NCBI GenBank assembly: GCA_964016885.1
Contig: OZ024741.1
Location: forward strand, 372,186,001-372,250,000
Source: Eledone cirrhosa
Lineage: Eukaryota
Length of the DNA stretch: 64,000 bases
Reading direction: 5' to 3'
The number at the start of each line of letters is the position of its first letter. Position 1 is the first letter of the stretch. The translations under genes were made by a program, and so were the position numbers. Below are positions 7,276 to 60,931 of the stretch, piece after piece. The notes below the pieces were generated by a model that saw nothing but the letters and a program-made list of their open reading frames with translations, had not been told where the DNA came from and did no database searches.

Positions 7276-7425
7276 CTGTGTATGTATGTAAAAACTTAAA
7301 CAATGGCATAAGTAAGAATAAAATGTTTTGTGTGGTCATTTTCGAAATGCGGATAATTATGTATGTATGTATGTATGTATGTATGTATGTATGTATGTAT
7401 GTATGTATGTATGTATGTATGTATG

Positions 7426-8031
7426 TTACCAGTAGCACCAACTGGTGACCTGACATGTAACATGTATCCCAGTACAACCTGTCCCATGGTCGGGTCGTTG
7501 GCGACTAATCTGGCAACCCCACCAAGGTTTCTTGGTGAGGAGGGTGACTTTGGACATCCTGCAGGACTAAAAACAAAACCTGTCAAAGGGCAAAGGAGCT
7601 CTTAAGAGTCAATGGCCATCCAAAATCACCAGGAGAGATGACCCCTTAGCCTTTGTCAAGGAAGAATTCTAGGAGAAGGAAAACTCTGATATAACAACTG
7701 CAACCCTGATGGTATCCAATGATGTTCTTCTTTTTGGTAAATATCATCTTGGTTAAGAGAGTGGGACTGGCTTTGTGCAGTGCCTTTGCTCACTATAAAA
7801 GCTTCACGGCACAGGCATTGCTTTATATCTGGAGATCTCTCTGCACTTGTCGTCACATGGTACCATGGGCCCAGCACTATGTTTCAATAATTGTCACAAG
7901 TGTAGCGTTTGTACCAGAGTTTTCAAGTCGCTGGCTGGACTAAAAAGTCACACTTGTTCAGCGCATCAGTAGGGGTTCTCCTACATGGATATAAAGTAGT
8001 GGCCGTACTTGAAAACGAGTTGGCAGCCATC
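7426..8031 (+). mobile_element. Bipartite non-autonomous RTE derivative (RTE-like 5' UTR fused to last C2H2 finger and 3' UTR) inside (TATG)n
   Basis: Contains TTCTAGGAGAAGGAAAACTCTGA, then HKCSVCTRVFKSLAGLKSH, then GGCCGTACTTGAAAACGAGTTGGCAGCCATCAT. (TATG)n lies on both sides, and copies occur at 25968 and 34682. Confidence 0.7.
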
Positions 8032-8054
8032 ATATATGTATGTATGTATGCGTA

Positions 8055-8680
8055 TTTCGGGTCACTCTTGAGTGCTACTGGTGACATATAGCCCAGTACA
8101 ACATGTCGCATGGTCGGGTCGTCGGTGATTAAACTGGTAACCCCACCAAGTTTACTTGGTGAGGAGAGTGATTTTGGACACCCTGCAGGACAAAAAACAA
8201 AACCTGACAAAGGGCGGAAGAACTCATGAGAGTCAACGGCCATCCAAAAATGTGTAAAAATGTATATTCACATGTATATGTATATGTATATATGTATATG
8301 CATGTGTGCACGTGTATGTATATGCGCGGGGACATAGAAATAATCGGGCTGGATACCCGATCGCGCAGTTAAACCACTGGGAGTGAAGGACCCCTAGCCT
8401 TTGTTAGGGCATTCTTCTAGGAGAAGGCAACTCAGGAAACTGGGATAACCTTGACATAAAACCCGTGGCTCAGTAGTTACCGATGATGTCGATCTCTTCT
8501 TCTTTTCGGGATATAGCTACTGTCGCTCAAAGAGTGGGATTGGCTCAGTGCACAGTCTTTCCTGACTTTAAAAAAATTCTTCACGCACAGGCATTGCACG
8601 ATAGAATTAATTAATAATTATTAATAATTGTTATATCGTGCAATGGTCATACTCGATAACGAGGGGACAGCCATCATCAT
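8055..8680 (+). mobile_element. Partial and diverged members of the same RTE-derived family
   Basis: 8055-8250 matches the 5' head. 8340-8680 shares the CTAGGAGAAGG, CCGATGATG, GAGTGGGATTGG and CACAGGCATTGC blocks and the ATACTCGATAACGAG..CAGCCATCAT 3' end. Confidence 0.6.
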
Positions 8681-56620: not shown

Positions 56621-56835
56621 AATAATAATAATAATAAAAAAAAACAAAAATCAAAATCAAAGCAGCACAGCAACAACGAAAAACGTAAAGGAAATAAAAA
56701 TGAAGAGAAAAACAAACGGACGGACAGAGAAGGGAAGGGAAAAACTAAGTCAGACATTCAAACACTACATTACAATGAAACTTATGCTTATTCATTTTTG
56801 GGGTTTTTTCTGCTTGTTTGTTTGTTTGTTTATTT

Positions 56836-59800
56836 GGGTTCGTCTACAGCGTGATAATGCCACACAAAAGTCACGTGGAGTGACGAAACCACCGGAGACA
56901 AGTAATTCACCGGTGGTTATGTAACCATACATTCGCCAATCCTTGATAAGAGTGTTTAAATGTCGAACCTAAACAGTTCGAATAACGGTGAAATGGAGAC
57001 TAGAATGTCATGTGACAGACTCTCACCCAACAGGTGCTCCCTGGCTCAGCAGCAGGGACCTGGCTGTCAACCAAATACTGCTGGTGTCGGAGGAAGAAGA
57101 AGGAAAGGGACCAGAACCAACTGGACGAAAGAATTGAATAGAACTGTTATGCAATGTTACCTGAAGAGTAACCCCAAGGAGAAAGGCTATAGGAAAAGGA
57201 TGCATAACATCTGGAACGAGATTGGTCCATTTAAATTAGATGAACAAAAACTGGCCGGGCAGACTCGGGTAATAAGAACTAATGGGTGGATAAGCGAGCT
57301 GGAACTGGAGGAACTGAGCAGAGAGATTAGCTTGGAGATAGAGGCTGGAGTATGCCAGGCAAGCGAGCCAGTGGGAAATGAAGGTGAAGAGGTCGAGAGA
57401 ACGGAGGAACCACCCGAAACAGACAATGATCTGAATGCTGAGATAAATAATACCTGGAACAGAGATACGGCCACTTAGGAGATGAATGCTGACGGGCTAG
57501 GACAAGATTTGGTAGATATCCTAAACTTAGTGGTAGATGAATTGAACAATGATAGTGGGAGACCTATGAACCTAAGATTTGTAGACAGGAAAAAGTTAAA
57601 AGAAACAACAGCTAAGGTAAACAAAGTCATCCCATACCTTGAGGCGAGGAGCCTTCACCAGTGCATCAATATCCTCAAAGCAACAGCAAATACGGTGAGG
57701 AAACTACTTGGTATAAAAGCGAGAGGAAACAACAGACAAGAAAGAGCAGAGCCTTGGTGGAAGAAACGACTGAGTGGTCAAATCAGGGAAATGAGAAATG
57801 ACATTGGAAAGCTTGAGTCCCAACTGAATGGGACACTAAAAAACATAGACACTAAAAATAGACTGGAAATAAAGTACAAAACTAGGAGGAAAAAGCTAAA
57901 TATTATCATAGAGGAACTGAAGCAACGCATTGTAGCAAAGAGTGCAAAAATCAGGCGATACGAGAACAGAGTCAGCCAGTATAGACAGAACCGCATGTTC
58001 GACAACAACCAGAAGATGCTGTTTGGACAGCTTGAAGGGAAAGAAAGAGGCAACGACTTGATCCCTGAGGTGGAACAAACTAAAACATTCTGGAGAGGAA
58101 TATGGGAGCAGGATGTTAAACATAATGACCAGGCAGTGTGGATTGAGACAGTACAGAAGGAGATCAGTGAACAGGCACACCAACAAACTGATTTGAGTAT
58201 CACAGTTGAAACTCTTAAGGGGCAGGCCAAAAAACTAACCAACTGGAAATCACCTGGCCCAGATGGTGTGCAGGGGTATTGGATTAAAAACATAACATCC
58301 CTCCACCCGAAACTGACAACCATGTTCAATGACTGCTTGATGTCAGGTGAGATACCAGAGTGGTTGACAAAAGGTACCACAGTTCTGATAATGAAAGACC
58401 GAATCAAGGGTAATGATGTTACCAACTATAGACCTATCACATGTCTGTCCGTAATGTGGAAACTGTTGACAAGCATTATGTCTGACGAAATCTACCATCA
58501 CCTCCACACAAACAACTTGTTACCGGATGAACAGAAAGGATGCCGAAAGAAGTCACGTGGTACAAAAGACCAGTTACTTATTGATAAGATGGTAATGAGG
58601 AATTGCAAGAGGAGACACACTGGTCTTGCCATGGGATGGATAGACTACAAAAAGGCATTTGACATGGTGCCTCATTCTTGGATCACCAAAAGCCTGGAGA
58701 TCTTCAGGGTGGCAGATAACATCAGACAGTTGTTGGGCAAAAGTATGAAGTCCTGGGAAACAGAGTTAACATCAACTGGAGAATCCTTGGGAAGCGTGAA
58801 GATCAAGAGAGGTATCTTCCAGGGAGATAGTCTGTCCCCTCTGTTGTTTGTCCTTGCCCTGATGCCCCTGACCAGTGTACTGCGAAAAGTGAGGGCAGGA
58901 TACGGGTTGGGAAAGGGCGGGCTTACCATCAATCACCTCCTCTTCATGGACTATCTTAAGCTCTTCGGGAAGAGTGAGAAGGAGTTGGATGTGCTTGTTG
59001 ACACTGTCCGTATTTTCAGCAATGATATATGTATGCAATTTGGTATTAGTAAGTGTGGAGTCATTGTGATGAGGAGGGGTAAGTTGAGCAGAAGTAACGG
59101 AATCCAGGTAACAACAGGTGAGATGATAAAGGAAATTGACTCTGAGGAAGGATACAAGTATTTGGGCGTTCTGGAGGCTGATGACATCAAGAACAAAAAA
59201 ATGAAGGAATTGATAAGAACTGAATACCTTCGGAGAGTAAGGAGCGTATTAAAGTCACATCTGAACAGGAGGAATGCCATAAGTGCAGTAAATTCCCGAG
59301 CTGTGTCTATTATTAGGTACAGTGCAGGAATTCTGAGATGGAATGTTGCTGAACAAAAAGAAATGGATGGAAGACTAGGAAGCTATTGACTATCTACAAT
59401 ATGTTCCACAAGAGGAGTGATGTCGATAGACTCTACTTAAGGAGATCTGAAGGTGGAAGAGGTCTTATCAGCATAGAGGACTGTGTTCAGATGGAGAAAA
59501 ACAACCTACACAAATACGTGACTGATAGTAAGGAGCCAATGCTCAGAACTGTACTGAAGGAGGGGACAGTAGGCCAGGGGATGTCCAAGGAGGAAATAAC
59601 ATCAAGGAAAAAGAGCAGCCTTCAGGAAAAATCCCTTCATAGTACCTTCTTTGAGAAAACTGAATTTAGAGATCCACAGACATGGAACTGGTTGAAAAGA
59701 GGAGACCTTAAAAAGGCTACAGAAGGAATGTTAATGGCTGCGCAGGAGCAGGCCCTCAAAACGAAGTGGTTGAAACACCACATTTACAAGGAGCAGGCTA

Positions 59801-60450
59801 ACCCACTGTGCAGGATCTGTGGAGAGAGAGAGGAGACTGTGGCTCACATTGTATCCGAGTGTAAACACCTAGCCCAGACTCACTATAAGGGCTGGAGACA
59901 TGATGTGATGGGCAGGGTGATCCACTGGCACCTATGCAAAGTAAACAATTTACCACATTCTGACAAGTGGTATGAGCATAAGCCAGAGGCGGTGATAGAA
60001 AACGATCAGGTGAAGGTGCTGTGGGATTTTAGGATACAGACGGACAAGAAACTGGAACACAATAGACCTGACCTGGTGGTTTTGGACAAAGAAAAAAGAT
60101 CGTGCCTGATTGTGGATGTGGCCTGCCCATTCGACACGAGAGTGCAAGAGAAGGAGAGGGAGAAAATTAACCGATACTAGGACTTAAAGTGGGAGGTAAA
60201 AAGGATTTGGAACTGCCATGAAGTCAAAGTGATCCCGATTGTCATAGGCGCACTAGGGACTATCTCAAAAGGTTTCCAGGGATGGTTAAAGAAAATTGGC
60301 CCCTTCACGCTTTTTGGAACGCTTCAAAAGGCATGCTTGCTGGGAACAGCAAGAACCCTCTGATACGTCCTGAATATCTGAGGCTGCAGGTAGTGGCTTG
60401 ATATTCATTTTAACAAACTTTCCAGTTAACTAACATCAATGACTGAGACT
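56836..60450 (+). mobile_element. Near full-length R4/Dong-like RLE LINE, inactivated (5' boundary uncertain)
   Basis: ORF 56960-60380 has GYRKRM..W, PWWKKRL, NWKSPGPDG, WIDYKKAFDMVPHSW, GIFQGDSLSPL, FMDY (for FMDD), CRIC..HIVSEC, RHD and RPD..DVACP. Stops at 57476, 60178 and 60361, a frameshift near 59370, and an A-rich/(TAA)n tail. Confidence 0.88.
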
Positions 60451-60931
60451 AAAAAAAAAAATAAAAAAAAAAAAATAAAAAAAAAAAAATAATAATAATA
60501 ATAATAATATATATATCTATATATATATATATATATATATATATATATATATATATATATATATATATATATATATATATATATATATGTGTGTGTGTGT
60601 ATATAGTAATCAGAGCCATTTAATCGAATTTCCCAACCGTAGAAATTGCTGGCCTAAATTAGAAACAGTTTTGAATGGGAAATGTCGGGAAAAGTATTTG
60701 ATGCTGAATCACCTATTGAGTTAATGTGTGGCAGATTCTCAAGCATATGTATTTTAGCTTCTGCTCTGTATAAAAACAGGTGAGACTGACATTGAGAAGA
60801 GGGTCCATTTGACCCTTACTTTACCGGGTGTTCATGTCGCCCAACTAGAGAGAAAACAAACAACGATTAAATAGAGAGCTAGAGGTAAAATAATCTGCCA
60901 TACTTTATAAACATTTGAGGCATTATAAACA

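What the first reader, a model, noticed from the sequence alone, without database searches (positions are those of the whole stretch)
7355..60590. Retroelement guilds partitioned by microsatellite target: (CATA)n, (AAT)n and (TA)n
Seen: all four copies of two R4-like families (8751, 25262, 33793, 36551) lie in CATA-type repeats on both sides, always with CATA on the element's sense strand. About eight RTE-derived pieces lie in the same arrays in the opposite polarity (TATG on the sense strand). The Tx1 LINE and Dong-like LINEs are stacked at one (AAT)n array, and Penelope/hammerhead and Helitron pieces sit at (TA)n. Established: Dong (R4 clade) targets TAA repeats, and Tx1-clade Kibi/Koshi target TC/TTC repeats. 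Inference: several sequence-specific endonucleases use microsatellites as safe-harbour niches. I do not recall a described (CATA)n-specific RLE LINE.
Basis: partly seen in the sequence, partly recalled or inferred. Interest (0 to 1): 0.72.

Follow-up and report, generated by a model that had tools for sequence, protein, structure and literature searches.

The report
Retrotransposons targeting CATA and AAT microsatellites
In this large animal genome, two jumping-gene families of a Dong-like branch sit almost only inside CATA repeats, while other families sit in the same or in AAT repeats facing the other way, likely because each enzyme cuts a different strand of the repeat; microsatellite targeting is known, but I did not find this target described for this group.

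Summary
Confirmed, and it holds outside the window. Two R4/Dong-like RLE LINE families (A, B) carry (CATA)n at the 5' junction, where no self-made tail can lie: 33 of 38 and 31 of 32 resolved copies, none with TATG, against 1.2% of random windows. A control LINE scores 0 of 24. A Tx1 has (ATT)n in 20 of 21 copies and a Dong has (AAT)n in 15 of 21. RTE elements favour TATG but are leaky (19 of 29, 13 of 25). All 41 nearest RTE neighbours of A/B face the opposite way. A and B form a branch apart from the Dong family; a relative from another assembly is flanked by (CTTA)n. The TA guild is weaker: Penelope was tested on one side only, the Helitron-like piece scored 16 of 29 against 12%, and Rfam found no hammerhead. 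Likely mechanism: target-primed insertion after a strand-specific nick at the one TpA step per repeat unit. Known: Dong/TAA, Kibi/Koshi, and Waldo, which targets ACAY. Repbase and Dfam could not be checked. This scan noted both guilds before on other stretches of this genome, and the AAT guild in another genome.

The parts
8753..14937 (-). Family A, full-length R4/Dong-like RLE LINE: one ORF about 8987-12630 with one in-frame stop; N-terminal domain shared with Dong, RT, CCHC-like knuckle, PD..(D/E)..K-type nuclease; 5' UTR interrupted at 12717-14813
8684..8752 (.). (TATG)n array = (CATA)n at the 3' end of A; also the 3' flank of an RTE-derived piece facing the other way
14938..15025 (.). (TATG)n array = (CATA)n at the 5' end of A
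12717..14813 (-). Small LTR element nested in the A 5' UTR (repeats 12717-13058 and 14489-14813, 94.7% alike; 4-base target duplication GGAT); not part of the guild
25262..25762 (-). Family B 3' fragment (82% to the young B copies); (TATG)5 at its 5' end, degenerate CATA at its 3' end
33793..34656 (+). Family B 5'-truncated copy between CATA arrays 33746-33792 and 34657-34682
36551..36828 (+). Family A 3' fragment between CATA arrays 36485-36552 and 36829-36859
7426..8034 (+). C1, about 600-base non-autonomous RTE derivative (RTE 5' UTR plus 3' end), TATG on both sides
8051..8683 (+). C2, related RTE derivative in two pieces (8051-8250, 8330-8683)
25830..26900 (+). RTE-derived pieces: C2 tail 25830-25876, C1 25965-26554, C3-like 5' piece from 26623
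34673..36490 (-). RTE-derived pieces: C1 34673-35221, C3 35362-35690, C1 3' part 35700-35957, C4 36038-36490 (3' end of an APE+RT RTE with C2H2 fingers), separated by CATA arrays
50166..56197 (-). Full-length young Tx1-like LINE (ORF1 53884-56076; ORF2 50429-54043 with APE, RT, zf-RVT); (ATT)n on the sense strand at both ends
56219..56620 (+). 3' fragment of a second Dong-like family between AAT tracts 56198-56218 and 56621-56635
56636..60452 (+). Family D, Dong-like RLE LINE lacking about 0.7 kb of 5' UTR; (AAT)n on the sense strand at both ends
45254..46816 (+). Penelope piece (GIY-YIG) with an inverted terminal segment, between (TA)n tracts
42474..43470 (+). Non-autonomous repeat with Helitron-like ends (label recalled, not tested); weak TA preference
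5269..7135 (+). Family E, RT-bearing LINE with its own (TGA)n tail; used as control (TA or unique DNA upstream, never CATA)

Best explanation
Families A and B are R4/Dong-like LINEs of a separate branch that sit inside (CATA)n arrays in one fixed direction, likely because their protein recognises the repeat, nicks the (TATG)n strand and primes reverse transcription from that nick. Shown: flanks, direction, fixed 3' register, domain layout, R2-like fold of the model, tree position. Inferred: the nick lies at the single TpA step of the TATG strand (GT^AT). Dong D would do the same on the ATT strand (TT^AT). The APE elements (RTE, Tx1) meet the target at 'AT' and would prime from nicks in an AT^A context. 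That context exists only on the other strand (CATA, AAT) and in (TA)n, which accounts for both the opposite polarity and the leak of RTEs into (TA)n. Each insertion leaves repeat on both sides, so sites are reused and stacks grow. The N-terminal Myb-like domain, which carries a branch-specific RRNR(D/N)Y stretch, is the candidate specificity module (inferred).
For: 5' junctions: A 33/38 and B 31/32 CATA with 0 TATG; Tx1 20/21 ATT with 0 AAT; D 15/21 AAT with 0 ATT; control E 0/24 CATA; background 1.2% and 0.45%. Truncation points differ from copy to copy, and full-length A copies have CATA upstream too. For A and B the 5' array is longer than the 3' array (medians 70 vs 33 and 76.5 vs 40.5 bases; Wilcoxon p 0.017 and 0.003), the reverse of a tail model. 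3' register: ACAT follows the fixed A end in 32 of 35 anchored copies; ATT follows Tx1 in 21/21; AT follows C1 in 28/29 and C4 in 27/29. Nearest neighbours of A/B within 400 bases: 41 RTE pieces all opposite, 29 A/B pieces all the same way. All 3 B copies met in random DNA have CATA at the 5' side. The model matches R2 structures over about 700 columns (E 2.5e-26). The N-terminus matches Dong D by HHalign at 98%. A, B and L382 share a branch with SH-aLRT 100; L382 has (CTTA)n at both ends.
Against: No biochemistry. No orthologous empty site was found, so the array length before insertion is unknown. 5 of 38 A and 6 of 21 D junctions lack the motif. The first bases after each 3' end could belong to the element, so the nick position is uncertain by a few bases. 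B ends carry 0-5 variable A/T bases before the repeat. The 5'-longer asymmetry is reversed in D and Tx1 (22 vs 48 and 30 vs 51). Copies were taken from the 40 best-scoring hits of 474-3111 candidates per family, so they are the ones closest to the window copy. CTTA rests on one contig, possibly collapsed.
Confidence: 0.75

Rival explanations
1. Tail-guided priming: the nuclease nicks TpA steps loosely, and the RNA 3' end, carrying a few repeat units from read-through, selects by base pairing the nicks that can prime. Specificity then lies in the RNA. This is probably the main route for the RTE elements.
For: RTEs are leaky: C4 5' junctions show TATG 13/25, TA 2/25 and neither 10/25; C1 shows TATG or TA 25/29. 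E ends in (GAT)n and favours TA (14/24). PMC6007223 (passages) proposes that RTE 3' microsatellites steer the cleavage or priming site.
Against: A few paired bases would also fit (TA)n or short ACAT sites, which are far commoner, yet A and B almost always sit beside long CATA runs (median 5' array 70-77 bases) and A only once beside TA alone. PMC6007223 notes that R2Bm does not need such pairing.
Confidence: 0.15
2. Self-built niche: elements insert at short ACAT motifs or at each other's tails, and the long arrays arise afterwards from target duplication, tails and slippage. The true target is then a short motif or the RTE tail.
For: 6 of 10 CATA arrays in random DNA touch B or C1. About half of A/B flanks have a guild neighbour within 400 bases. 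Tandem A-A and Tx1-Tx1 copies with short spacers occur.
Against: 20/38, 14/36, 22/34 and 11/30 flanks have no library neighbour within 400 bases, and 4 of 10 random arrays stand alone. It does not explain why the 5' arrays of A/B are the longer ones. It is compatible with the best explanation as a secondary process.
Confidence: 0.08
3. Passive survival: insertions are random and persist only in repeat-rich, gene-poor DNA.
For: PMC3812793 (passage) gives this explanation for Waldo-A/B near CA repeats. The genome is very rich in microsatellites.
Against: It cannot give family-specific motifs, strict strand polarity or a fixed junction register. Control E, of similar age (about 98% alike), never has CATA upstream.
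Confidence: 0.02

Closest known systems
Dong, DongAg, DongBg and ostracod Dong1/2 (R4/Dong clade), (TAA)n-specific (PMC3812793, PMC7998251: passages)
   Same: Single ORF with RT and C-terminal restriction-like nuclease, N-terminal Myb-like region without zinc fingers, microsatellite on both sides. Family D fits directly.
   Different: A and B use a four-base unit (CATA; a relative CTTA), are 36-39% identical to D in the RT and lie on a separate branch.
Waldo (ACAY repeats) and Mino (AC), APE-type (PMC3812793: passage)
   Same: The ACAY target includes ACAT, the same repeat unit as (CATA)n.
   Different: Those are APE-type insect elements; A and B have a C-terminal RLE and fold like R2.
Kibi (TC)n, Koshi (TTC)n, crocodilian Tx1 (TTCC)n/(TTTC)n (PMC4494074: passages)
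   Same: Two-ORF APE LINE with a microsatellite at both ends in one direction.
   Different: The target here is (ATT)n, shared with a Dong family facing the other way.
Togen (TG)n and some HERO families (PMC4640811: passages)
   Same: RLE LINEs specific for microsatellites.
   Different: Different target; placed near NeSL/HERO. No reference sequence was available to test kinship.
RTE-clade LINEs and derived short elements with 3' microsatellites (PMC6007223: passages)
   Same: 3' microsatellite matched to the first target bases; short derivatives that keep the 3' end.
   Different: Here the 5' flank of truncated copies is also strongly enriched for TATG (13/25 against 1.2%), which is more than a one- or two-base match.

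Membership tests
R4/Dong clade (families A, B) | One ORF with a non-LTR RT | tested here: met
   Pfam RVT_1; one frame with one stop in the window copy
R4/Dong clade (families A, B) | C-terminal CCHC-like knuckle and restriction-like nuclease, no APE | tested here: met
   CRLC..H...C, RHD and HNRPD..VVE..K motifs align with Dong D; the model matches R2 over RT to C-terminus; Pfam found no APE
R4/Dong clade (families A, B) | N-terminal divergent SANT/Myb-like domain without zinc fingers (PMC7998251) | tested here: inconclusive
   No C2H2/CCHC pattern in the N-terminal part of A, D or L382, and A matches the D N-terminus at 98% over 70 columns. Pfam gave no SANT hit, so the Myb identity rests on the paper. 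The 5' end of B was not recovered.
R4/Dong clade (families A, B) | RT groups with reference R4 and Dong sequences | not testable with these tools
   No named R4, Dong, NeSL or HERO reference among the hits. The tree shows only that A/B and D lie on different branches (deep node SH-aLRT 84, root unreliable).
Dong in the narrow sense | (TAA)n target | tested here: not met
   Not met for A and B (AAT at 1 of 38 and 0 of 32 5' junctions); met for D (15/21 5', 29/29 3')
Tx1 clade (50166-56197) | ORF1 plus ORF2 with N-terminal APE, RT and C-terminal zinc-binding domain | tested here: met
Tx1 clade (50166-56197) | RT groups with Tx1 references rather than L1 | not tested
Target-specific Tx1 (criterion of PMC4494074: over 20% of flanks share a motif) | Same repeat on both flanks | tested here: met
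   20/21 5' and 21/21 3' (ATT)n
RTE clade (C pieces) | Parent with APE and RT in one ORF region | tested here: inconclusive
   Long C4 parents of about 3.8 kb carry RT (E 5e-21) and a weak APE match (E 0.002, below the Pfam cut-off); all copies are broken. C1-C3 share the parent's 5' UTR (66-74%), and C3 its 3' end. The clade name is recalled from motifs.
Penelope-like element | GIY-YIG nuclease and inverted terminal segment | tested here: met
Penelope-like element | Hammerhead ribozyme | tested here: not met
   No hammerhead among 89 Rfam matches at E up to 1; minimal variants may escape the models
Helitron (42474-43470) | Rep/helicase partner or diagnostic termini | not tested
   No ORF; only the flanks were tabulated

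The most novel reading that the evidence does not exclude
A and B belong to an undescribed, widespread branch of the R4/Dong clade that has been retargeted from TAA to four-base CWTA repeats (CATA here, CTTA in a relative) through its N-terminal DNA-binding arm. RLE and APE retrotransposons divide each microsatellite by strand, each class using the single TpA step of the opposite strand. This would be a general rule for how unrelated LINEs share and enlarge microsatellites, and a natural series of target switches in an R2-like integrase.
Probability: 0.4. Interest if true: 0.68.

Novelty: new variant of a known kind. Interest (0 to 1): 0.5.

Why it matters
Close relatives with different targets (TAA, CATA, CTTA) make a testable question of how R2-like proteins read and change DNA targets, which also bears on the use of such proteins for gene insertion. 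The result means that many microsatellites in this genome are landing pads and products of active LINEs. That affects microsatellite markers, repeat annotation (short-read insertion calls are hard at such sites) and claims about LINE activity in cephalopods. The lifestyle itself has been known for two decades, and this scan has already noted both guilds, so the advance is a new target, genome-level counts with controls, and a strand rule.

Tried and rejected
The duplicated 342 bases at 12717 and 14489 first looked like part of A's 5' end; they are the two repeats of a nested LTR element. The Rfam scan gave only microsatellite-driven miRNA/snoRNA noise, with no hammerhead or HDV match. A search for paralogous empty sites among about 2 Mb of fetched DNA (71 copies tested) gave only other guild stacks, no true pre-insertion allele. 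The first metagenome scan, with one protein, found nothing. Cluster look-ups gave no accession or organism for the closest proteins. Sequencing-run search: no RNA holder listed. Contigs of four other runs cover family A (three over 29-30 of 30 bins, one sparsely over 27), but the loose ends shown did not settle its flanks there. The 5'-junction microhomology count was too noisy to interpret. A PDB sequence search with the degraded RTE APE piece found nothing. The family E control was not target-free: it favours TA (14/24). Rows dropped before counting: the window's own copy in each family; copies running 5' beyond the reference (B 2, D 8, E 5); C4 4 at locus edges; Penelope 1 and Helitron-like 5 without a found 3' end. 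Two early fetches (L121, L122) ran in the wrong direction and were redone. PMC309301 is not held, and Kojima and Fujiwara 2004 was not seen.
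Full report
Setting. The window lies on a 416-Mb contig of a 3.0-Gb animal assembly. An octopod is my guess from the repeat content and from earlier scan notes; it was not tested. The window is rich in microsatellites and holds several LINE families.

What is in the window. Family A (8753-14937, minus strand) is a full-length single-ORF LINE. 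Its 5' UTR is split by a small LTR element with a GGAT duplication; the uninterrupted UTR is seen in L027. A fragment of A lies at 36551-36828, and family B at 33793-34656 and 25262-25762. All four have CATA on the sense strand at both ends; two of the 3' flanks are short or degenerate. About ten RTE-derived pieces share these arrays with TATG on their sense strand. C1 is a 600-base element with fixed ends. C1-C3 share 5' UTR sequence with 3.8-kb parents of C4 that carry RT, a weak APE match and C-terminal C2H2 fingers. At 50097-60508 four AAT tracts separate a full-length Tx1-like LINE (minus), a Dong-like fragment and a 5'-truncated Dong-like copy, D (plus).

Genome-wide test. For each family I searched the own genome with its 3' part. 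Each search scored the best 40 of 474-3111 candidates, so these are samples close to the window copy, not censuses. I extended loci to reach the 5' junctions. The rule was a perfect run of at least 10 bases within 50 bases upstream of the junction plus 10 inside it. Results: A 33 of 38 CATA, 0 TATG. B 31 of 32 CATA (2 of 34 dropped, as they run beyond the reference). Tx1 20 of 21 ATT, 0 AAT (21 of the 39 other hits examined; 20 are full length and about 97-99.7% alike). D 15 of 21 AAT, 0 ATT (8 of 29 dropped as longer than the reference). Control LINE E 0 of 24 CATA and 14 of 24 TA, with its own (TGA)n tail in 29 of 29. RTEs: C1 19 of 29 TATG (25 of 29 TATG or TA; 2 also had a CATA run) and truncated C4 13 of 25 TATG, 0 CATA. 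Background in 200 kb from 20 fixed positions: CATA 1.2%, AAT 0.45%, TA 12%. Binomial p is below 1e-29 for A, B, Tx1, D and C1. Truncation points differ between copies, so the 5' repeat is target DNA and not a tail.

Polarity and register. The nearest library neighbours within 400 bases of A/B copies were 41 RTE pieces, all facing the other way, 29 A/B pieces, all facing the same way, and one Tx1; 67 of 138 flanks had none. ACAT follows the fixed 3' end of A in 32 of 35 anchored copies (3 of 38 lacked the anchor). B has 0-5 variable A/T bases before the repeat. ATT follows Tx1 in 21 of 21; AT follows C1 in 28 of 29 and C4 in 27 of 29. The 5' array is longer than the 3' array for A and B, but shorter for D and Tx1.

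Mechanism (inferred). In target-primed reverse transcription the strand opposite the element's sense strand is nicked and primes the copy (established knowledge, recalled). Each strand of (CATA)n and of (AAT)n has one TpA step per unit. If the first flank bases are target-derived, A primes from ...GT on the TATG strand and D from ...TT on the ATT strand, whereas RTE and Tx1 prime from ...AT on the CATA or AAT strand or in (TA)n. This accounts for the opposite direction in both guilds and for the RTE leak into (TA)n. For A and B the near-exclusive use of long arrays points to protein recognition; for RTE, pairing of the RNA end may suffice (model in PMC6007223, passages). Six of 10 CATA arrays in random DNA touch B or C1 and four do not, so the niche is probably partly built by its users. 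No true empty site was found.

Kinship. A has RT, a CCHC-like knuckle and an HNRPD..VVE..K nuclease motif that align with D. Its model (pLDDT 81) matches R2 structures best (E 2.5e-26, about 700 columns). The N-termini of the A branch and the D branch match at 98% probability and lack zinc-finger patterns; the A branch adds an RRNR(D/N)Y stretch. This fits the R4/Dong description in PMC7998251 (passages). In an RT tree of 147 rows (quick IQ-TREE; 92 of 120 A hits, every third D hit of sufficient length (40 rows), 11 metagenome ORFs), A hits and D hits fall on opposite sides of one branch (SH-aLRT 84; the root is unreliable). A, B and metagenome locus L382 share a branch with support 100. More distant loci (L385, L387, L390, L393) show AAT at their 3' ends. 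No named R4 or Dong sequence was available, so clade membership by tree is untested.

TA guild. Penelope 3' ends meet (TA)n in 28 of 28 measurable copies of 29; the 5' ends were not resolved. The Helitron-like repeat has TA upstream in 16 of 29 and downstream in 7 of 24, against 12%. That is a preference, not specificity. Rfam found no hammerhead.

Literature. Eight searches found no CATA/TATG-specific RLE element and no ATT-specific Tx1. Seen as passages: PMC3812793 (Dong TAA, Waldo ACAY, Mino AC, Kibi, Koshi), PMC4494074 (crocodilian Tx1 TTCC/TTTC), PMC4640811 (Togen TG), PMC7998251, PMC6007223 and PMC9115989 (an octopus Dong and an RTE whose 3' UTR is a microsatellite; no hit for 'target site'). 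For PMC13282606 I read part 1 of 3 plus a term search: Dong-R4, RTE and Tx1 are listed as recently active in Octopus vulgaris, and the word 'target' does not occur in the main text. I read no supplements.

Earlier scan notes. Two notes describe the CATA guild and five or more the AAT guild elsewhere in this genome, and one describes the AAT guild in another genome. They are not independent support.

Verdict. A real, genome-wide pattern and a new variant of a known kind. Interest 0.5.

Noticed in passing
window 12717-14813: Small non-coding LTR element (repeats of about 330 bases, 1.4-kb interior, 4-base duplication); 3304 first-look candidates in the genome, often as pairs 1.0-1.8 kb apart.
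   Followed up: partly
window 20010-22838: 1.3-kb inverted repeat, 97% alike, with a short spacer (20010-21331 / 21524-22838) made largely of AT/AC repeats; a foldback element or an assembly artefact.
   Followed up: no
window 41663-42280: Perfect 196-base inverted repeat pair around a 226-base core, next to (TA)n; MITE-like or a local inversion.
   Followed up: no
window 1349-1984 (-): Host exon with a CHB_HEX domain (beta-hexosaminidase type, E 5e-28); the stacks may lie in or upstream of this gene.
   Followed up: no
L129/L472 and L128: Two A copies are broken at the same internal short AAT stretch; in one a SINE-like repeat seen beside AAT arrays has inserted there, so the guilds can nest in each other.
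   Followed up: partly
L201-L220: The Tx1 family is very young: 20 of 20 extended copies span both ends at about 97-99.7% identity, several in head-to-tail tandem with only ATT repeats between them.
   Followed up: partly
L221-L229: Full-length Dong D copies have a 5' UTR built of a repeated block of about 450 bases in varying number; L222 and L227 keep intact 1140-aa frames.
   Followed up: no
window 7292-7374 and 25182-25264: An 83-base segment, 88% alike, lies directly left of two different TATG arrays; it was not found in other fetched loci.
   Followed up: partly
window 5333-6763: Control LINE E carries a PHD-finger match inside its RT-thumb region.
   Followed up: no
C1 5' ends, L092-L120: 20 of 29 copies share one exact 5' end, always preceded by G, which suggests a processed 5' end such as ribozyme cleavage; Rfam gave no match.
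   Followed up: partly
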